Counted from the first letter of the stretch, positions 529-18,325 are shown. The stretch: 20,446 nucleotides of DNA from a virus (IMGVR_UViG_2529293217_000011); one strand, 5' to 3'. Translations and numbers: made by a program. Notes: generated by a model from the letters alone, not told the origin.

Positions 529-605
529 TGGCGCGTTGTAGTGGAGTCGAACCACTGACCGATTGCTTAGAAGGCAATTGCTCTGTCCGGCTGAGCTAAC
601 AACGC
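529..605 (-). tRNA. tRNA-Arg (anticodon TCT)
   Basis: 77-nt cloverleaf read by hand on the - strand: 7-bp acceptor stem GCGTTGT/ACAACGC, D-arm GCTC/GAGC, anticodon stem ATTGC/GCAAT with loop CTTCTAA (anticodon TCT), T-arm AGTGG-TTCGACT-CCACT, encoded CCA. Resembles the argN/argO-type tRNAs carried downstream of Q in lambdoid/Stx phages. Confidence 0.8.
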
Positions 606-705: not shown

Positions 706-781
706 TGGTGGCCCTTGCTGGATTTGAACCAGCGACCTGGCGATTATGAGTCGCTCGCTCTCACCACTGAGCTAAAGGGCC
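706..781 (-). tRNA. tRNA with anticodon CAT, ileX/ileZ-like (tRNA-Ile2; Met cannot be excluded)
   Basis: 76-nt cloverleaf on - strand: acceptor GGCCCTT/AAGGGCC, anticodon loop CTCATAA, T-loop GGTTCAAATCC, encoded CCA. Close to the E. coli ileX sequence as I recall it. Confidence 0.8.
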
Positions 782-2361: not shown

Positions 2362-2780
2362 TTCTCAATCTCTCGATGGCGCAGTGCAGCAGATGCCAGT
2401 TGTTCAAGCTAGCACGCAAATTGTAAACCAGAATGCCAGGAAAAAACAAAACCCGCCGAAGCTGGTTGTGTGCGGTTGCGTTGAAGTCTCCTAGCCAAAG
2501 AGTAGCGGTGACCACTCCCCGCCGATAATCTTAGTTGTTTAATTTCGTAAGCTAACTAGGCTAAAAGCTCTCTGTTGTCTGCCTGTTGTACAATTAACAA
2601 AATGAACAACGAACTAGATATACCAACGCCAGAATGGTGCAACAAATCCCAAACAACACAGCAATGCAACAATAACATATGTTATTTTCCTCTCACGGGA
2701 TTCAGTCCTGAATTCTCATAAAGCTAATCTTTTTTTAAAAACATACTGTTAGATCACATGCACTTTCTTTCTTAACATCG

Positions 2781-2808
2781 TTGACTTCGCATGCGAAGCG
2801 TTTAAAAT
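2781..2808 (+). promoter_or_regulatory. Sigma70-type promoter for the GHKL ATPase operon with an embedded 14-bp perfect palindrome
   Basis: TTGACT (2781-2786), 16-bp spacer, TAAAAT (2803-2808), about 50 bp upstream of the ATG at 2861; the spacer contains the perfect palindrome CTTCGCATGCGAAG (2785-2798). Confidence 0.5.
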
Positions 2809-2860
2809 CAACAATTTGCACTTAAGGTATTTATTTTCCCAAACACATAGAGAGTAAATT

Positions 2861-4252
2861 ATGACTGAGAACACGACTCCAACAGCAGACTTTAGTCCTA
2901 GTAAAAGATTTTTTGTAAGTATGCTAACTCGAGATATCGACTTAAACGATGCCATACTTGATCTGCTTGATAACTGCGTCGATGGGGCTTTACGTACAAT
3001 AAAAGACACAAAAAAAACTTCAAAACCATATGAAGGATTTTATGCGAAACTTACGATTAATAAAGATGTCTTTATTATAGAAGACAATTGCGGAGGTATC
3101 CCTAAAAGCTTCCGAGAATATGCTTTTAAAATGGGACGACCCCATCAAAAAGAAGAAGAAAATGAAGGCACCGTTGGCGTCTATGGTATTGGTATGAAAA
3201 GAGCCATTTTTAAAATGGGTAGAGATTGCTCAATACAATCGAATAATCCCGATGGCGCATTCACTGTAGATATAACACCTGATTGGATCGATGGTGATGG
3301 TTGGAAAATACCGATGCACGAGAGTGACTATGATAACAAAAATCCAACAGGCACAACTATAGAGATAAAAAAACTCCATTCTAATGTGGCACAAAAATTT
3401 AATGAGAGCACATATCTTACTGATCTCTTTTTACAGATAAAACACTCATTGTCATTTATTATTCAAAAAGGATTTAAAATAGAATTAAATGGAGTTGTTG
3501 TTGAACATAATCCGATTAACATCATAACTGATCATTCTAAAATAGAACCATACATATATAAAGCTAAAATAGACGATGTTGATATCGATTTAGTTGTTGG
3601 CTTCTATAAAAATTTAGAAGATGACAATGATGATGTTTTAGAAAAAAGGAGTTCTGATGATGCTGGATGGACTGTCATTTGCAATGACCGCGTTGTTCTA
3701 TATTGTGATAAGACACATCTCACAGGTTGGGGCTTTGCTAATGTACCAAGGTTTCATACCCAATTTATAGCAATTTCTGGGGTTGTTCGCTTTACCAGTA
3801 AAAACCCAGAAAAATTACCAATAACAACAACGAAACGAGGTGTCGATCTTAGTTCTACATTGTACAATGATGTACGAAATAAAATGATTGAAGGGATGAT
3901 GCATTTTATTCGATTCACCAATCAGTGGAAAGGTGAGCATCTTGAAGAAGGGAAAAAATTACTTAAGTCAGCTCAGTCACATGAAGCTCAATCTTTATTT
4001 GAAATTACCCCACAATCAACTCCAGAAGATAAAAAAAATAACTGGTCCAACCCTAATAGAAACAAAAATGAGTGGCGATATACACCTAAGCTGCCTACCC
4101 CAGTAAAAAAAAGCTCTACTGTACGAATAATCTTCACCAGAGAGAAAGAAGATGTTAAAATTTTATCTAAATATTTCTTTGGACATGAAGATGCTAGCGC
4201 TTCTGATGTGGGGATGCAATGCTTTGATACGGTGATTGAAGAGGTGAAGTGA
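2861..4252 (+). CDS. GHKL-superfamily (Bergerat-fold) ATPase, MORC/MutL-like N-terminal domain, 463 aa
   Basis: N-terminal motifs read directly from the translation: motif I LDLLDNCVDGA (cf. MutL ELVENSLDA), motif II IEDNCGGIP (DNGxGI), motif III GVYGIGMKRAIF, motif IV NPTGTTIEI. About 290 C-terminal residues with no motif I recognise. Low-GC coding sequence. Confidence 0.8.
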   Translation: MTENTTPTADFSPSKRFFVSMLTRDIDLNDAILDLLDNCVDGALRTIKDTKKTSKPYEGFYAKLTINKDVFIIEDNCGGIPKSFREYAFKMGRPHQKEEENEGTVGVYGIGMKRAIFKMGRDCSIQSNNPDGAFTVDITPDWIDGDGWKIPMHESDYDNKNPTGTTIEIKKLHSNVAQKFNESTYLTDLFLQIKHSLSFIIQKGFKIELNGVVVEHNPINIITDHSKIEPYIYKAKIDDVDIDLVVGFYKNLEDDNDDVLEKRSSDDAGWTVICNDRVVLYCDKTHLTGWGFANVPRFHTQFIAISGVVRFTSKNPEKLPITTTKRGVDLSSTLYNDVRNKMIEGMMHFIRFTNQWKGEHLEEGKKLLKSAQSHEAQSLFEITPQSTPEDKKNNWSNPNRNKNEWRYTPKLPTPVKKSSTVRIIFTREKEDVKILSKYFFGHEDASASDVGMQCFDTVIEEVK

Positions 4253-5241
4253 TGTCTGGACAATACATTCCCTATCACTTAAGGCATAATAAGTCTATTG
4301 ATAGAGAGATTTTTCTCGAAAGCCTAAACCTCTTAAGCAAAAGACTAAATATTCAAGAATATACATATATAGGTTTTGGTGGTCCGATGCTTGAAGATTT
4401 TAGAATCATGCATAATCGTATCGCTCTTTCTGATATGATTTCTCTCGAAGAACAAGAGTCTACTCACATCAGACAAAAATATAATTTGCCTTATAATTGT
4501 ATTGATTGTAAGCTAATATCAGCTCATGACTTTATTCTTGATTATAGTTTTTCTAAACCATCAATAACATGGTTAGACTATGCCTCCCCGAAAAAAATAC
4601 AAACGGATCTAGATGATATACACTTACTAAGTACTAAAGTAAGCTCTTTTGATATTTTGAAGGTCACCTTCCCCATAAATCCTAGTTCTTATTACCAACG
4701 TAGAGTTGGAGAAAGTTTAGATATTTTTAAAGAAGCTTTTATTAATTCATTAAAATCATTGCTTGGGAAAAAGTATCTTGATTTTAATCTTCAGATATCA
4801 AATGCAGATCTTTCAGATCGTAAGATTAAAGCTCTTTTAATACGAATTATTACAAACGCTTTTAGATCAGCAATAGAACGTGGTCTTTCAGGACGTAAGG
4901 ATAAGATTCAGTATTACCCATTATCCTTAAATCAATATAATGATGGCAGTCATACCATGTTGACAATATCAGGTTTTTTCTCCTCAGAACAAGAATATAT
5001 AGAGTTATCTAAGGCATGCGACCTTTCTAACTGGCAATTTTATTCAACAAATTGGGAAGACGTGCAAGAAATAGCAATACCAACACTAACAATTAAAGAA
5101 AAGATAAATTTAGATAGTAAACTGCCTGATAAAGAAGCATATCAGGCAGCCGCTGAAGAGTTCTCTTTAAACGAAAATGAACGGGATAACTATTATAAAT
5201 ACTATAGGTTATACCCTAACTTCCAAAGAATTATGGTTTAA
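4252..5241 (+). CDS. Hypothetical protein, about 330 aa, translationally coupled partner of the GHKL ATPase
   Basis: ATG at 4252 overlaps the TGA stop of the ATPase gene (TGATG); the ORF track starts it at GTG 4249. AT-rich like its neighbour. No catalytic motif (PD-(D/E)xK, HNH, PLD) could be assigned by eye. Confidence 0.7.
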   Translation: MSGQYIPYHLRHNKSIDREIFLESLNLLSKRLNIQEYTYIGFGGPMLEDFRIMHNRIALSDMISLEEQESTHIRQKYNLPYNCIDCKLISAHDFILDYSFSKPSITWLDYASPKKIQTDLDDIHLLSTKVSSFDILKVTFPINPSSYYQRRVGESLDIFKEAFINSLKSLLGKKYLDFNLQISNADLSDRKIKALLIRIITNAFRSAIERGLSGRKDKIQYYPLSLNQYNDGSHTMLTISGFFSSEQEYIELSKACDLSNWQFYSTNWEDVQEIAIPTLTIKEKINLDSKLPDKEAYQAAAEEFSLNENERDNYYKYYRLYPNFQRIMV

Positions 5242-6360
5242 ATATTCGGGCTGTACTCTTTTATTTAATAAATTGTACAGCCCCTTTAATATATATTCAG
5301 CAACTATTGGTGACACGCTATTTCCTATTTGTCTGAAACTATGCCATTTAGTTACATGAAAGCGAAACCAATCAGGGAAGCCTTGTAATCTAGCAGCTTC
5401 TCTTGGTGTAATCACTCTTGGATGATAAGGGTGGATCGGCCTGACGGCTTGAAAGCTTCCTTTATCTCTAGCGGTTCCCGCCCTTAAAGTCGGGCAAAAA
5501 CCATTTGGATCTAATCTTGTAGATCTTGAAATTTTATCAGTTTCCCCAAAAGATAAGGAAGCATAACGCTCTTGGACGATTTTGCTATGTAATGTTCCGG
5601 TACATCCAGATATGATATTATTTTTTAACTTAGCGATCGATTCTGTATCACCAACATTCCGAGGGATCTGCCCCCATAATTTTTCATAAAATCCCCCTTT
5701 TCGATCTTTTTTAATTGTTCGCCAACTCTCAGAGTCTGATTGCCAATTGGCATCGATAATATCTGGTAATCCATACAAAGCATCTTTTACAGTAACCGGA
5801 TCAATCATTTTAGGCATAAATACTTCATCTGAAATATCAAGCTTCAATGATTTTTTTACACCGATAAAAAAATATCTAGTTCGAATAGTTGGAGCACCAT
5901 AATCAGATGCTTTTACCTTGATGGGATCAAGAATATCATAATCACCGCTAACCAAATTAAATGCTTTATTTCTAATGCCAGAATATTTCTCTTGCATAAT
6001 ACCTGGAACATTTTCTGCCAAAAAGAATAATGGCTGTAATTCTGATACTAAACGGTAGAAATGCATGTAAAGCTGATTCCTGCTATCATCAGGATTCCCC
6101 TTGCCTATTGAACTAAATCCTTGGCACGGAGGACCGCCAATAATACCATCTATGGGCATATCGTTTTTAAAAAAACCCTTAATTATTTCTGCATTTAGTA
6201 AAGAAACATCTTCTTGGACGTGCAAACTTCTTGGAAAATTAATTGCGTGAGTATTAATAGCATGTTGATCAATTTCAACTGCCATTTTAACATCAAATCC
6301 AGCACGTGCAGCACCAAGACTTAGACCTCCAACGCCAGAAAACAAATCTATTACATTCAT
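5209..6360 (-). CDS. DNA (cytosine-5)-methyltransferase, 383 aa
   Basis: Canonical C5-MTase motifs: motif I DLFSGVGG, motif IV GGPPCQGFS (catalytic PCQ), ENV, C-terminal motif X QIGNSVSP. The 3' end overlaps the convergent partner gene by 33 bp (5209-5241). Confidence 0.9.
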   Translation of the reverse strand: MNVIDLFSGVGGLSLGAARAGFDVKMAVEIDQHAINTHAINFPRSLHVQEDVSLLNAEIIKGFFKNDMPIDGIIGGPPCQGFSSIGKGNPDDSRNQLYMHFYRLVSELQPLFFLAENVPGIMQEKYSGIRNKAFNLVSGDYDILDPIKVKASDYGAPTIRTRYFFIGVKKSLKLDISDEVFMPKMIDPVTVKDALYGLPDIIDANWQSDSESWRTIKKDRKGGFYEKLWGQIPRNVGDTESIAKLKNNIISGCTGTLHSKIVQERYASLSFGETDKISRSTRLDPNGFCPTLRAGTARDKGSFQAVRPIHPYHPRVITPREAARLQGFPDWFRFHVTKWHSFRQIGNSVSPIVAEYILKGLYNLLNKRVQPEYLNHNSLEVRV

Positions 6361-6392
6361 ATAGTTGCAACGTCTCTTATTAGTTTCTATGT

Positions 6393-6401
6393 ATTATAAC
6401 A
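6393..6401 (-). promoter_or_regulatory. Extended -10 element (TGtTATAAT) upstream of the methyltransferase gene
   Basis: On the - strand TGTTATAAT lies about 33 nt upstream of the MTase ATG (6360) in an AT-rich leader. Confidence 0.4.
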
Positions 6402-6791
6402 CAACTGTTCTTGATGTTTTAACCCCATAAGATAACCTCATAAAGGCTATCCCTTGAAAATACCGGATCGCATAAATTTAATCTTTCAAAACTACTTGTC
6501 TATTAATCGAGCAATTTAAGGTTGTTTTAGTCATGTCGATACCGACATAGTTAACTAAACCCATTTCATCGTCCAACAAATGGGGGTAATACACTTTGAT
6601 TTATAGTCGGGTGGGTTTTTCTCTATCTGCCTTTGGTGTTCATGCCCAAGGCAGATAGCCTCAAGCACCCGCAGCAATTCTACTTAACTATCCTTTTCCC
6701 GCAAATCGTTTTTATCCCCAGCGGCAAATCGAATACACAACCAGCGCCACCGCCATCGCAATTCCTACCGTTGTGAATGCTTCAGGCCAGG

Positions 6792-14491: not shown

Positions 14492-17092
14492 ATGAGCACA
14501 AAACCACTCTTCCTGTTACGGAAAGCGAAAAAATCATCCGGTGAACCTGACGTCGTCCTGTGGGCAAGCAACGATTTTGAATCGACCTGTGCCACTCTGG
14601 ACTACCTGATCGTTAAGTCAGGTAAAAAACTGAGCAGCTATTTTAAAGCTGTTGCCACGAATTTTCCTGTCGTTAATGACCTGCCCGCTGAAGGTGAGAT
14701 CGATTTTACCTGGAGTGAACGCTATCAACTCAGCAAAGACTCCATGACATGGGAACTAAAACCGGGAGCAGCACCAGACAACGCTCACTATCAAGGCAAT
14801 ACCAACGTCAACGGCGAAGACATGACTGAGATTGAGGAGAATATGCTACTCCCAATTTCTGGCCAGGAACTGCCCATTCGTTGGCTTGCTCAACACGGCA
14901 GCGAAAAACCGGTAACGCACGTTTCACGCGACGGACTCCAGGCATTACACATTGCTCGGGCTGAAGAACTACCGGCTGTTACTGCCCTGGCTGTTTCCCA
15001 CAAAACCAGCCTGCTCGACCCGCTGGAAATTCGCGAACTCCACAAACTGGTTCGTGACACTGACAAAGTTTTCCCTAATCCTGGTAATTCAAACCTGGGA
15101 CTGATAACTGCTTTTTTCGAAGCATACCTGAACGCTGACTACACCGATCGAGGACTGCTGACAAAAGAGTGGATGAAGGGTAATCGTGTTTCACACATCA
15201 CTCGCACGGCTTCCGGTGCTAATGCTGGCGGCGGAAACCTCACCGATCGCGGCGAAGGTTTCGTACACGATCTGACGTCACTGGCGCGCGACGTAGCCAC
15301 TGGCGTACTGGCCCGTTCAATGGATCTGGACATCTATAACCTTCATCCGGCACACGCTAAACGCATTGAGGAAATTATCGCTGAAAATAAACCGCCCTTT
15401 TCTGTTTTCCGCGACAAATTCATCACCATGCCTGGCGGGCTGGATTATTCCCGCGCCATCGTGGTTGCGTCCGTAAAAGAAGCACCAATTGGGATCGAGG
15501 TCATCCCCGCGCACGTCACTGAATATCTGAACAAAGTACTGACTGAAACCGATCATGCCAACCCTGATCCGGAAATCGTGGATATTGCCTGCGGTCGCTC
15601 CTCTGCCCCGATGCCGCAGCGAGTAACAGAAGAAGGAAAACAGGATGATGAAGAAAAACCGCAACCATCTGGAACAACGGCAGTTGAACAGGGAGAGGCT
15701 GAAACAATGGAACCGGACGCAACTGAACATCATCAGGACACGCAGCCGCTGGATGCTCAGTCACAGGTAAATTCTGTTGATGCGAAATATCAGGAACTGC
15801 GGGCAGAACTCCATGAAGCCCGGAAAAACATTCCATCAAAAAATCCTGTCGATGCCGATAAATTGCTTGCTGCATCACGTGGTGAATTTGTTGACGGAAT
15901 TAGCGACCCGAACGATCCGAAATGGGTAAAGGGGATCCAGACTCGCGATTGTGTGTACCAGAACCAGCCAGAAACGGAAAAAACCAGCCCGGATATGAAT
16001 CAACCTGAGCCAGTAGTGCAACAGGAACCGGAAATAGCCTGCAATGCCTGCGGCCAGACTGGCGGGGATAACTGCCCTGACTGTGGTGCGGTGATGGGCG
16101 ACGCAACATACCAGGAAACATTCGATGAAGAGAGTCAGGTTGAAGCTAAGGAAAATGATCCGGAGGAAATGGAAGGCGCTGAACATCCGCACAATGAGAA
16201 TGCTGGCAGCGATCCGCATCGCGATTGCAGTGATGAAACTGGCGAAGTCGCAGATCCCGTAATCGTAGAAGACATAGAGCCAGGTATTTATTACGGAATT
16301 TCGAATGAGAATTACCACGCGGGTCCCGGTGTCAGTAAGTCTCAGCTCGATGACATTGCTGATACTCCGGCACTGTATTTGTGGCGTAAAAATGCCCCCG
16401 TGGACACCACAAAGACAAAAACGCTCGATTTAGGAACCGCTTTCCACTGCCGGGTACTTGAGCCGGAAGAATTCAGTAACCGCTTTATCGTAGCACCTGA
16501 ATTTAACCGCCGGACAAACTCCGGAAAAGAAGAAGAGAAAGCGTTTCTGAGGGAATGCGCAAGCACAGGAAAAACGGTTATCACTGCCGAAGAAGGCCGG
16601 AAAATTGAACTCATGTATCAGAGCGTTATGGCTTTGCCGCTGGGGCAATGGCTTGTTGAAAGCGCCGGACACGCTGAATCATCAATTTACTGGGAAGATC
16701 CTGAAACAGCAATTTTGTGTCGGTGCCGTCCGGACAAAATTATCCCTGAATTTCACTGGATCATGGACGTGAAAACTACGGCGGATATTCAACGATTCAA
16801 AACCGCTTATTACGACTACCGCTATCACGTTCAGGATGCATTCTACAGTGACGGTTATGAAGCACAGTTTGGAGTGCAGCCAACTTTCGTTTTTCTGGTT
16901 GCCAGCACAACTATTGAATGCGGACGTTATCCGGTTGAAATTTTCATGATGGGCGAAGAAGCAAAACTGGCAGGTCAGCTGGAATATCACCGCAATCTGC
17001 GAACCCTGGCTGACTGCCTCAATACCGATGAATGGCCAGCTATTAAGACGTTATCACTGCCCCGCTGGGCTAAGGAATATGCAAATGACTAA
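14492..17092 (+). CDS. recE: Exodeoxyribonuclease VIII (RecE), 866 aa, apparently intact
   Basis: Full-length 866-aa ORF recognised as RecE; the C-terminal nuclease region (...[27 protein letters not shown]...) is present. Confidence 0.95.
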
Positions 17093-17949: not shown

Positions 17950-18099
17950 ATGAGATATGACAATGTTAAACCATGTCCATTTTGTGGTTGTCCATCAGTA
18001 ACGGTGAAAGCCATTTCAGGATATTACCGAGCGAAGTGTAACGGATGCGAATCCCGAACCGGTTATGGTGGAAGTGAAAAAGAAGCACTCGAACGATGA
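17950..18099 (+). pseudogene. ralR: ralR (lar, restriction alleviation), truncated at codon 50 by in-frame TGA; frame continues to 18144
   Basis: MRYDNVKPCPFCGCPSVTVKAISGYYRAKCNGCESRTGYGGSEKEALER then TGA (18097-18099), then in frame NKRTTGNNNGGVHV and TAA. The K-12 RalR I recall is 64 aa with TGG (Trp) at this position. Confidence 0.7.
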
Positions 18100-18136
18100 A
18101 ATAAACGAACCACTGGAAATAATAATGGAGGTGTTC

Positions 18137-18325
18137 ATGTATAAAATTACCGCCACTATTGAAAAGGAAGGTGGCACTCCTACTAACTGGACAAGATATT
18201 CAAAATCTAAACTAACGAAATCAGAATGCGAAAAAATGCTCTCAGGTAAAAAAGAAGCAGGCGTTTCCAGAGAGCAGAAAGTAAAACTGATAAATTTTAA
18301 TTGCGAGAAACTTCAGTCCTCGTGA
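18137..18325 (+). CDS. ydaC: YdaC-like protein, 62 aa as encoded (in-frame TGA, then 6 further sense codons)
   Basis: MYKITATIEKEGGTPTNWTRYSKSKLTKSECEKMLSGKKEAGVSREQKVKLINFNCEKLQSS then TGA (18323-18325), then in frame IALYSN and TAA (18344-18346). The K-12 YdaC I recall is 69 aa ending SSRIALYSN. Confidence 0.7.
   Translation: MYKITATIEKEGGTPTNWTRYSKSKLTKSECEKMLSGKKEAGVSREQKVKLINFNCEKLQSS

What the first reader, a model, noticed from the sequence alone, without database searches (positions are those of the whole stretch)
2400..6600. Low-GC three-gene cassette (GHKL ATPase, unknown partner, C5 methyltransferase) inserted in the prophage nin region: candidate MORC-like restriction-modification or defence module
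Between the replication genes and the nin/Q genes sits a roughly 4-kb block that is clearly more AT-rich than the flanking prophage DNA. It encodes a GHKL ATPase (2861-4252), a translationally coupled 330-aa protein with no recognisable domain (4252-5241) and a convergent C5-cytosine methyltransferase (5209-6360). GHKL (paraMORC-type) ATPases linked to DNA methylases have been proposed as components of restriction-like systems, but this pairing with an unassignable partner does not match any defence system I can name. Its position is the classic moron/defence hotspot of lambdoid phages. The cassette may protect the lysogen or the phage's own DNA.
Basis: partly seen in the sequence, partly recalled or inferred. 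Interest (0 to 1): 0.9.

Follow-up and report, generated by a model that had tools for sequence, protein, structure and literature searches.

The report
MORC ATPase, two-methyltransferase prophage cassette
A 4.1-kb foreign block in an E. coli O157:H7 prophage carries a conserved but untested three-gene module (cytosine DNA methylase, MORC-type ATPase, second methyltransferase-fold protein) that sits at known anti-phage cargo sites of several phage families and is most likely a restriction-like defence system without a recognisable nuclease.

Summary
Window 2485-6612 is a 4.1-kb low-GC block (34.9% against 46.5%) in prophage Sp10 of E. coli O157:H7. It replaces hokD, which related prophages carry at that slot.

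It encodes a GHKL ATPase, a translationally coupled 330-aa protein and a convergent C5 DNA methyltransferase (identical to PDB 3G7U).

The 330-aa protein matches Pfam PF20553 (Methyltransf_35) at E 2e-89, and its model is a class-I SAM methyltransferase closest to tRNA methylase Trm1. The ATPase model is closest to MORC3, SMCHD1 and MORC2. I found no nuclease fold.

The module is conserved:
- The ATPase gene lies directly upstream of the PF20553 gene in all 37 bacterial genome loci.
- A C5 methylase is adjacent in 30 of 34 informative genome loci, in at least four arrangements, and in all 50 viral loci.
- Vsr is a frequent neighbour.
- The module also occupies the P2 old/tin hotspot and a Pf filamentous phage.

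It is absent from PADLOC, and I found no functional study.

Best reading (about 0.5): a methylation-keyed, restriction-like defence in which a methyltransferase-fold protein takes the nuclease's place. This is a new variant of the predicted paraMORC R-M class. Function is inferred, not shown.

The parts
2448..2484 (-). 37-bp remnant of the 3' end of a hok-type locus. It marks the left junction of the inserted block.
   Evidence: blastn against a hokD-bearing relative (L094 2534-2570, 89% identity). The hokD CDS and its upstream region (L094 2571-2888) are replaced in the window.
2485..6612 (.). The whole 4128-bp low-GC cassette.
   Evidence: GC 0.349 against 0.465 for the rest. No other window of equal size falls below 0.43. 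Homology to the empty-site relative stops at 2484 and resumes at 6613. Present intact, in single copy, in 172 of 5426 complete E. coli genomes.
2781..2808 (+). Sigma-70-like promoter candidate (TTGACT-16-TAAAAT), about 50 bp upstream of the ATPase gene.
   Evidence: Consensus scan, 10 of 12 matches. The number of such sites in the region is not above shuffled expectation, so this is only a candidate. Expression in the lysogen is supported by a microarray study (PMC2241611) and by proteomics (PMC3210124).
2861..4252 (+). [not shown]
4252..5241 (+). [not shown]
5209..6360 (-). [not shown]
   Evidence: Pfam DNA_methylase at 2.6e-61. PADLOC MTase_II at 2e-98. Essentially identical to PDB 3G7U, E 1e-254. 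The translation shows the FSGVGG, PPCQ and ENV motifs.
5209..5241 (.). 33-bp overlap of the convergent 3' ends of the PF20553 gene and the MTase gene.
   Evidence: Coordinates and sequence. The same convergent overlap recurs in enterobacterial, Pseudomonas, Dyella and alphaproteobacterial loci.
6393..6422 (-). Promoter candidate with an extended -10 (TTAAAA-18-TG-TATAAT) upstream of the MTase gene.
   Evidence: Consensus scan, 10 of 12 matches with TG. Candidate only.

Best explanation
The block is a horizontally acquired, self-contained three-gene module. I read it as a restriction-modification-like defence system keyed on cytosine-5 methylation.

Shown:
- The Dcm-family MTase, the MORC-type GHKL ATPase and the PF20553 methyltransferase-fold protein form a conserved unit across many bacterial phyla and at least three phage families.
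- The ATPase and PF20553 genes are always adjacent and translationally coupled.
- Motif residues for ATP binding (ATPase) and for SAM binding and catalysis (PF20553 protein) are invariant.
- Neither protein has a detectable nuclease fold.
- The module rides in known anti-phage cargo slots.
- ATPase and PF20553 transcripts, and the ATPase protein, have been detected in the lysogen.

Inferred:
- The C5 MTase marks resident DNA (host and prophage) as self.
- The ATPase, as an ATP-driven dimeric DNA clamp like MORC or MutL, works in a complex with the PF20553 protein to examine DNA.
- On DNA that lacks the mark, the complex blocks the invader.
- The PF20553 protein takes the place that a nuclease, HEPN RNase or TIR domain holds in sister paraMORC systems.
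- It would act either by methylating a nucleic-acid base (an effector) or as a SAM-dependent, base-flipping sensor of unmodified sites, as proposed for PglX in BREX.
For: - **Linkage in genomes.** The ATPase gene is directly upstream of the PF20553 gene in 37 of 37 genome loci. A C5 MTase is adjacent in 30 of 34 informative loci, in at least four arrangements: convergent, co-directional upstream, co-directional downstream and divergent.
- **Linkage in viral contigs.** All 50 viral loci carry the MTase next to the pair.
- **Reverse check.** 4 of 4 ATPase-clade proteins have a PF20553 gene downstream, and 3 of 4 have the MTase upstream.
- **Different MTase lineages.** In L018, L030 and L033 the adjacent MTases match the window MTase only weakly (E 1e-15 to 1e-38), which suggests other lineages. 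The link would then be to C5 methylation rather than to one MTase lineage.
- **Vsr.** It is adjacent in 17 distinct loci, which argues that real 5mC is made.
- **Sister modules.** The same MTase clade is also flanked by larger paraMORC paralogues in 7 loci. HEPN-type C-terminal domains were detected in two of them (L020, L024). One locus has two ATPase-PF20553 pairs around one MTase. Published predictions cover paraMORC with DCM, Vsr and nuclease, and paraMORC-HEPN (PMC2292703; PMC3710099). A paraMORC3-nuclease protein (VcSduA) is a proven defence (PMC12137116).
- **Location.** Here it sits in the lambdoid hokD slot. It also occupies the P2 old/tin hotspot between portal and gene A, where Rousset et al. 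list it as an uncharacterised cargo locus. It is in Pf phage PfAC20 and in islands with HsdR, AAA_15/21, Fic, integrases and an HNH gene.
- **Enzyme integrity.** GHKL motifs and SAM-binding motifs are invariant.
Against: - No phage-resistance, toxicity or methylation experiment exists for any member that I could find.
- No nuclease or other classical effector is detectable, so how DNA lacking the mark would be stopped is unknown.
- Four or five loci carry the ATPase-PF20553 pair with no adjacent MTase: two cyanobacteria plus Scytonema, and two Parabeggiatoa. In two of the cyanobacterial loci (L008, L095) the pair is flanked by ndh-type genes. That is awkward for a module that is toxic without its MTase, unless an unlinked MTase serves.
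- The ATPase is unusually conserved (about 45% identity across phyla). This is unlike fast-evolving restriction enzymes.
- The MTase recognition domains are all alignable, so the usual diversification of specificity is not evident.
- In the window the MTase points with the phage early operon and the pair points against it. That is also compatible with separate roles.
Confidence: 0.5

Rival explanations
1. A modification-only (epigenetic or anti-restriction) module. Both methyltransferases modify nucleic acid, and the MORC-type ATPase is a loader or processivity clamp. The module would protect or mark the mobile element's and the host's DNA, or act downstream of 5mC as a reader-writer. There would be no restriction of foreign DNA.
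For: Two methyltransferase folds and no nuclease. The MTase is co-oriented with the phage early operon, as phage anti-restriction MTases are. Pairs without an MTase sit in stable chromosomal contexts in cyanobacteria. The ATPase is highly conserved. Eukaryotic MORC and SMCHD1, the closest folds, act with DNA methylation (background knowledge).
Against: The module lies in defence islands and in the P2 old/tin and lambdoid cargo slots. Sister paraMORC modules on the same MTase clade include HEPN-type effector fusions. The PF20553 protein shows no sequence similarity to known DNA MTases and has no evident variable recognition domain. The pair is transcribed against the phage lytic operon and is expressed in the lysogen.
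Confidence: 0.2
2. Two independent cargoes that happen to be neighbours: an orphan phage C5 MTase used against host restriction, and a separate two-gene ATPase-PF20553 system with an unrelated function.
For: The orientations in the window are opposite, and each unit has its own promoter-like site. Pairs without an MTase exist. Orphan MTases are common in phages (background; PMC8936443).
Against: Adjacency holds in 30 of 34 informative genome loci and 50 of 50 viral loci despite rearranged gene order. It holds across at least seven phyla and in lambdoid, P2-like and Pf phages. In 172 E. coli genomes the three genes are always together.
Confidence: 0.1
3. A guard-type abortive-infection module in the manner of PrrC or RloC. 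The ATPase-PF20553 pair is held inactive by, or monitors, the C5 MTase or another R-M system. It fires on host RNA (for example by methylating tRNA or rRNA) when a phage interferes.
For: Anantharaman et al. proposed exactly this logic for paraMORC-HEPN fusions in R-M neighbourhoods. Such paralogues sit beside the same MTase clade. The nearest solved folds to the PF20553 protein are tRNA and rRNA methyltransferases.
Against: Fold similarity is modest (TM 0.3-0.44), and generic class-I MTases score nearly as well. No methyltransferase toxin of this kind is known to me. There is no evidence of any trigger.
Confidence: 0.12
4. An ordinary Type II R-M system whose endonuclease is simply too divergent to recognise.
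For: Convergent, overlapping gene layout with a Dcm-type MTase and frequent Vsr, as in many Type II systems.
Confidence: 0.05

Closest known systems
paraMORC / prokaryotic MORC R-M-like systems predicted by Iyer, Abhiman and Aravind 2008 (PMC2292703)
   Same: A GHKL-plus-S5 ATPase is encoded next to a DNA cytosine methylase, often with Vsr, on mobile islands. The ATPase fold is closest to MORC3, SMCHD1 and MORC2.
   Different: Those systems pair the ATPase with SF-II helicases and nucleases, or fuse it to a REase, TIR or other C-terminal domain. Here the obligate partner is a stand-alone SAM-methyltransferase-fold protein (PF20553). My term searches of that paper returned no passage describing such a partner. 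I could not assign this ATPase to paraMORC1-5.
Shedu type I-D / paraMORC3 (for example VcSduA, PMC12137116)
   Same: An N-terminal GHKL ATPase controls an anti-phage output. This is the only experimentally validated defence I found that is built on a paraMORC-type ATPase.
   Different: VcSduA is a single protein with a C-terminal DUF4263 PD-(D/E)xK nuclease and no linked MTase. The window's ATPase has no nuclease domain and is tied to two methyltransferase-fold proteins.
paraMORC-HEPN (Ymh / DUF4145) fusions in R-M neighbourhoods (Anantharaman et al. 2013, PMC3710099)
   Same: They sit beside the same clade of C5 MTase, sometimes in the same locus as the ATPase-PF20553 pair. This suggests a common design of sensor or motor plus a swappable effector.
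   Different: The effector there is a predicted RNase fused to the ATPase. Here it is a separate methyltransferase-fold protein.
C5 MTase + HATPase_c_3-HEF_HK-HATPase_c + Response_reg_2 modules (Bellieny-Rabelo et al. 2021, PMC8011034)
   Same: A C5 MTase is linked upstream of a paraMORC-derived GHKL protein and a small partner protein. These modules are also uncharacterised.
   Different: The partner there is a receiver-like domain, and the GHKL protein carries histidine-kinase-like additions. There is no PF20553 protein.
Methylation-keyed defences without a classical Type II nuclease: BREX (PglX), DISARM class 2 (DrmMII) and Druantia II (DruM)
   Same: They discriminate self from non-self by a methyltransferase and add ATP-dependent machinery. 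The window MTase scores against the DruM and DrmMII profiles (4.9e-57 and 4.2e-47). In BREX the SAM-bound MTase itself senses unmodified sites (PMC11842806 abstract).
   Different: None of the signature BREX, DISARM or Druantia proteins is present, and PADLOC finds nothing for the two partner proteins. The motor here is a GHKL ATPase rather than a helicase or Lon-like protein.
Trm1 / RsmD / RlmI / RlmJ-type nucleic-acid methyltransferases
   Different: There is no detectable sequence similarity, and TM-scores are low. The PF20553 protein has its own invariant N-terminal Y-x-x-R-x-x-K-x-x-x-R motif, a helical insert and a C-terminal extension. Its substrate is unknown, and the database label 'O-methyltransferase' is unsupported.

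Membership tests
GHKL ATPase, MORC/paraMORC type | Bergerat-fold ATP-binding motifs I-IV | tested here: met
   Pfam HATPase_c_3 above the gathering score. Invariant D34xxxN38xxD41G, D75xG78G79, G106xxG109xG111-K113 and G164-T165 across 74 homologues. The general-base position holds an invariant Asp, not the usual Glu.
GHKL ATPase, MORC/paraMORC type | S5-fold transducer domain after the GHKL domain, with a conserved Lys reaching the nucleotide | tested here: met
   [not shown]
GHKL ATPase, MORC/paraMORC type | Family-specific signature that separates MORC proper from paraMORC1-5 | not tested
   No reference sequences or profiles of the Iyer et al. families were available, so the assignment to a numbered paraMORC family is open.
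Type II restriction-modification system | Active DNA methyltransferase with the conserved C5 motifs | tested here: met
   Pfam DNA_methylase at 2.6e-61 and TIGR00675 at 9.6e-46. FSGVGG, PPCQ and ENV are in the translation. Solved structure 3G7U. Activity and target sequence are not testable here.
Type II restriction-modification system | A cognate endonuclease with a recognisable nuclease fold | tested here: not met
   No nuclease domain by Pfam, NCBIfam or PADLOC. The confident AF2 models match only GHKL/MORC and class-I MTase folds.
Pfam PF20553 (Methyltransf_35), class-I SAM-dependent methyltransferase | Full-length match above the curated threshold | tested here: met
   E 2e-89, 300 bits against a cutoff of 27, residues 2-329 on profile positions 1-308 of 309.
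Pfam PF20553 (Methyltransf_35), class-I SAM-dependent methyltransferase | Seven-stranded Rossmann-like MTase fold with a Gly-rich loop after strand 1, an acidic residue at the end of strand 2 and a catalytic motif at the end of strand 4 | tested here: met
   [not shown]
O-methyltransferase (the database name) | Evidence that oxygen is the methyl acceptor | tested here: inconclusive
   The top structural neighbours are N- and C-methylating tRNA/rRNA enzymes (Trm1, RsmD-like, RlmI, RlmJ). O-MTases appear only lower in the lists. The substrate cannot be read from the fold.
Shedu (type I-D, paraMORC3) | DUF4263 PD-(D/E)xK nuclease domain | tested here: not met
   No DUF4263 or any Pfam hit beyond residue 134 of the ATPase. 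No PADLOC hit.
BREX / DISARM / Druantia | Signature partners (PglZ/BrxC, DrmA/DrmB, DruE) next to the MTase | tested here: not met
   PADLOC matches only the MTase and gives nothing for the two neighbours. The surrounding genes are ordinary lambdoid prophage genes.
Anti-phage defence system (generic) | Measured protection against phage | not testable with these tools
   Only contextual evidence is available: defence islands and the P2, lambdoid and Pf cargo slots. Rousset et al. list the locus, but its protein ids occur only in the P2-locus table (file 6) among the held supplementary files, some of which were cut when stored.

The most novel reading that the evidence does not exclude
The PF20553 protein is the immune effector or sensor of a nuclease-free restriction system. 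A MORC-type clamp reads the C5-methylation state of DNA. It then directs a SAM-dependent methyltransferase to disable unmarked invaders by methylating a nucleic-acid base, or to halt translation by methylating RNA. That would be a defence in which methylation is both the self-mark and the weapon. It would also be a bacterial MORC functionally coupled to 5mC, the arrangement later seen in eukaryotic MORC and SMCHD1 silencing.
Probability: 0.2. Interest if true: 0.9.

Novelty: new variant of a known kind. Interest (0 to 1): 0.66.

Why it matters
The module is not rare.
- The PF20553 family has about 2,400 clusters at 50% identity.
- It is present in 172 of 5,426 complete E. coli genomes, all EHEC O157:H7 or O111 in the rows examined, including the reference strains Sakai and EDL933.
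- It occupies the cargo slots that have yielded most recently discovered phage-borne defences.

Despite this I found no functional study, and it is missing from PADLOC.

If it is a defence system, it would widen the known range of effectors beyond nucleases, NADases, pores and RNases to a methyltransferase fold. It would also give the first experimental handle on what MORC-type ATPases do next to cytosine methylases in bacteria. That question has been open since 2008 and bears on the origin of eukaryotic MORC and DNA-methylation silencing.

If instead it is a modification-only module, it would be an ATP-dependent, two-enzyme marking system carried by prophages of a major pathogen. Either result is reachable with one cloned 4.1-kb fragment and three point mutants.

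Tried and rejected
- **Sequence search against solved structures.** The ATPase alone, the PF20553 protein alone and the PF20553 profile gave nothing useful. Only the MTase hit, to 3G7U.
- **PADLOC and NCBIfam.** No meaningful hit for the two partner proteins. A MzaB match at E 0.037 is noise.
- **AFDB fold search.** It was unavailable.
- **Informative fusions.** Longer PF20553 family members carry no extra Pfam domain.
- **Literature.** Searches for PF20553 or Methyltransf_35, the locus tags, bacterial MORC defence, GHKL plus methyltransferase, the P2 hotspot papers and EHEC methylomes found no functional description. The finds were expression data, a proteomics detection, and an unnamed entry in Rousset et al. 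Table S5A.
- **O111 SMRT methylome paper.** It neither lists this MTase nor detects 5mC, so it says nothing about the targets.
- **Partial cassettes in E. coli.** I looked for MTase-only or pair-only versions as a test of toxicity. None exist; all 172 copies are near-identical, so the test has no power.
- **Promoter and terminator scans.** Counts were not above shuffled expectation.
- **Chance juxtaposition.** Considered and rejected as the main reading, for the linkage reasons given above.

Full report
**1. What is in the window**

The window is identical to prophage Sp10 of E. coli O157:H7 Sakai (the same DNA is in EDL933), read in reverse orientation. The phage early-right operon (cro, O/P-like replication genes, small nin-type genes, Q) runs on the minus strand. 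Replication genes lie at 9343-10884 and Q at 921-1475.

- ATPase, 2861-4252 (+).
- 330-aa protein, 4252-5241 (+). Its ATG overlaps the ATPase stop codon in TGATG.
- C5 methyltransferase, 5209-6360 (-). Its 3' end overlaps that of the 330-aa gene by 33 bp.

**2. The compositional anomaly and the boundaries**

The sliding GC profile drops from about 0.50 to 0.31-0.39 between about 2500 and 6700.

With boundaries derived independently (below), the block 2485-6612 is 34.9% GC against 46.5% for the rest of the window. GC3 of the three genes is 0.25-0.27 against 0.47-0.62 in flanking phage genes. None of 194 other 4128-bp windows is below 43%.

I searched E. coli genomes with the two flanks joined. 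Related prophages carry hokD at this position, beside the same DUF1367 gene. A direct comparison gave the following:
- Homology ends at window 2361 (the end of the DUF1367 gene).
- It reappears as a 37-bp hok 3' remnant at 2448-2484.
- It resumes at 6613.

So a 4.13-kb foreign block has replaced the hokD coding region in a variable cargo slot.

**3. The three proteins**

*C5 MTase.* It is an ordinary Dcm-family enzyme with all signature motifs. It is essentially identical to the structural-genomics entry 3G7U.

*ATPase.* By sequence it matches only HATPase_c_3, over residues 28-132.
- GHKL motifs I-IV and a transducer lysine (K325) are invariant. The general-base position carries an invariant Asp (D34) rather than Glu.
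- The last 130 residues are helical and match nothing.

*The 330-aa protein.* It is not unassignable.
- It matches Pfam PF20553 (Methyltransf_35, 'putative O-methyltransferase') end to end at E 2e-89. RefSeq now names it accordingly.
- Its model is very confident (pLDDT 92.9, pTM 0.91). It is a seven-stranded class-I SAM methyltransferase with a helical insert and a helical C-terminal extension.
- TM-scores are modest (0.3-0.44), and many small-molecule MTases score nearly as well.
- The Gly-rich loop (G42, G44), the acidic residue after strand 2 (E67) and a D110-Y111 pair after strand 4 are invariant or nearly so in 85 sequences. So is an N-terminal Y9-R12-K15-R19 motif.
- I conclude it is probably an active SAM-dependent enzyme, possibly acting on a nucleic-acid base. 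The 'O-' in its name has no support, and the substrate is unknown.

Neither partner protein shows a nuclease fold.

**4. Is it one module?**

Yes.

*Protein-level context.* A Leptospira locus at 36% identity has ATPase, PF20553 protein, a convergent C5 MTase and Vsr. Another contig has the MTase upstream and co-directional.

*Species-representative genomes.* The scan gave 37 loci. They come from alpha-, beta- and gammaproteobacteria, cyanobacteria, Desulfobacterales, Verrucomicrobia, Bryobacterales and Bacteriovoracaceae.
- In all of them the ATPase gene lies directly upstream of the PF20553 gene, usually with overlapping stop and start.
- A C5 MTase is adjacent in 30 loci. Three of the remaining seven are truncated contigs.
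- The arrangements are convergent, co-directional upstream, co-directional downstream and divergent.
- Three of the adjacent MTases match the window MTase only weakly, which suggests other lineages.
- The other 27 form one clade whose recognition domains align over their full length (mean identity 39%, core 54%).
- Vsr is adjacent in 17 distinct loci.

*Pairs with no MTase.* Four loci with good flanks lack any MTase: two cyanobacteria and two Parabeggiatoa. Their neighbours are housekeeping genes. A third cyanobacterial locus (L007) is flanked by Tn7-like transposition genes, but its upstream flank is truncated.

*Reverse check.* Starting from four ATPase homologues, I found the PF20553 gene downstream in all four and the MTase upstream in three. 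The fourth (Scytonema) is again an MTase-less pair among ndh genes.

*Viral contigs.* All 50 loci carry the MTase next to the pair.

*Family size.* The PF20553 family has 2,434 clusters at 50% identity (1,421 at E of 1e-30 or better). Nearly all are stand-alone proteins of about 320 aa.

**5. Where it lives**

- **P2-like phages.** A large group of viral loci are P2-like. There the triad sits between the terminase/portal genes and replication gene A, which is the old/tin cargo hotspot.
- **Rousset et al. [quoted passage not shown] Those protein ids occur only in that supplementary table, and their main text does not mention the locus. I did not compare those proteins with the window's, so the identification rests on domain composition and position.
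- **Pf phage.** The triad is also the leftmost cargo of Pseudomonas filamentous phage PfAC20.
- **Plasmids.** The PF20553 gene is on a Microvirga plasmid and an S. meliloti megaplasmid.
- **Chromosomal islands.** Neighbours include integrases, an HNH/SBD protein, HsdR, AAA_15/21 ATPases, Fic and ParB-like genes.
- **E. coli.** The cassette is in 172 of 5,426 complete genomes, always intact, single-copy and at least 99.8% identical. In the rows examined the serotyped strains are O157:H7 and O111.

**6. Relation to known systems**

- Iyer, Abhiman and Aravind (2008) showed that MORC and paraMORC ATPases sit with cytosine methylases, Vsr, helicases and nucleases. They predicted novel R-M systems.
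- Anantharaman et al. (2013) added paraMORC-HEPN fusions and compared them to PrrC and RloC.
- I see larger paraMORC paralogues beside the same MTase clade in seven loci. HEPN-type C-terminal domains (Hypoth_Ymh, DUF4145) were detected in two of them. One locus has two ATPase-PF20553 pairs around a single MTase.
- A paraMORC3-nuclease protein, now classed as Shedu type I-D, is a proven defence.
- A parallel set of modules (C5 MTase, GHKL-HEF_HK protein, receiver-like protein) is also uncharacterised.

The pattern is a C5 MTase hub with GHKL modules whose output domain varies. In the present module the output position is held by a methyltransferase fold.

PADLOC v2 has no model for either partner. 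No paper in the searchable library mentions PF20553.

**7. Most likely mechanism**

I favour a methylation-keyed, restriction-like defence (confidence about 0.5).
- The MTase marks resident DNA.
- The MORC-type ATPase dimer and the PF20553 protein form the surveillance and output complex.
- DNA lacking the mark is neutralised.

What is shown: the conserved linkage, the intact catalytic motifs, the absence of a nuclease fold, the cargo-slot locations and the expression in lysogens. What is inferred: self-marking, sensing of unmethylated DNA, complex formation and any output.

The weakest link is the output step. The PF20553 protein might methylate a base in the invader's DNA. It might methylate RNA. 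Or it might act as a SAM-dependent sensor, as proposed for PglX in BREX (abstract seen).

Facts that do not fit comfortably:
- MTase-less pairs sit in stable cyanobacterial contexts.
- The ATPase is highly conserved (about 45% identity across phyla).
- The MTase recognition domains do not show the usual diversification.

These keep alive a modification-only or 5mC-dependent reading (0.2), a guard-type abortive reading (0.12), independent neighbours (0.1) and a cryptic ordinary R-M system (0.05).

**8. Verdict**

It is a new variant of a predicted but experimentally unexplored class. It is widespread, sits in a reference pathogen genome and can be tested with one clone. I cannot exclude a description in a subscription journal outside the searchable library, or a model in a newer DefenseFinder release.

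Noticed in passing
window 18143-18321 (-), with ORF 18065-18325 (+): A full-length Rfam match to RalA, the antitoxin sRNA of the RalR/RalA type I toxin-antitoxin pair of Rac-type prophages (225 bits, E 3.5e-54). It overlaps an antisense ORF that would be the ralR toxin gene.
   Followed up: partly
window 2448-2484 and 6613-6932: The cassette replaced a hokD toxin locus. Only a 37-bp 3' remnant and the region upstream of hokD survive. Related prophages in many E. coli genomes keep hokD at this slot.
   Followed up: yes
window 529-605 (-) and 706-781 (-): Two phage-borne tRNA genes lie just downstream of Q: tRNA-Arg (TCT) and a CAT-anticodon tRNA. ARAGORN calls the second Met, and the Sakai record annotates it as ileZ.
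   Followed up: partly
window about 7250-8000, 12750-13250 and 13750-14500: Further, smaller low-GC patches (0.36-0.40) occur in the same prophage. One covers the sieB superinfection-exclusion gene. They may be other acquired cargo.
   Followed up: no
window 2861-4252, residue D34 of the ATPase: The GHKL general-base position (ExxxN in MutL, GyrB, Hsp90 and MORC) holds an invariant Asp (DxxxN) across 74 homologues. This could mean slow or regulated ATP hydrolysis.
   Followed up: partly
L010 5616-12709: A Rhodoferax locus carries two divergent ATPase-PF20553 pairs, one on each side of a single C5 MTase. The second pair is a distant paralogue (E 6e-51 and 9e-13 to the window proteins).
   Followed up: partly
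L012, L013, L016, L020, L021, L024, L025: A second, larger paraMORC ATPase (546-610 aa) sits directly beside the same C5 MTase. It carries Hypoth_Ymh in L020 and DUF4145 in L024, both HEPN-type domains. Two GHKL modules therefore appear to share one MTase.
   Followed up: partly
L008 3333-7993 and L095 2727-10576: In filamentous cyanobacteria (Kastovskya, Scytonema) the ATPase-PF20553 pair has no adjacent MTase. It lies next to or between NADH-dehydrogenase/antiporter (Proton_antipo) genes, which suggests a stable chromosomal copy with a possibly different dependence.
   Followed up: partly
L043 (Pseudomonas phage PfAC20) 280-3711 and 5438-6082: A 13.6-kb filamentous Pf phage devotes a quarter of its genome to the triad. 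It is also annotated with a second, short 'DNA cytosine methyltransferase' (ORF9), which gave no Pfam hit.
   Followed up: partly
L091 7001-7994 and L040 259-1394: There are occasional decayed copies. The PF20553 gene is split by a frameshift in one P2-like prophage. The ATPase gene is split in a Verrucomicrobiota contig.
   Followed up: no
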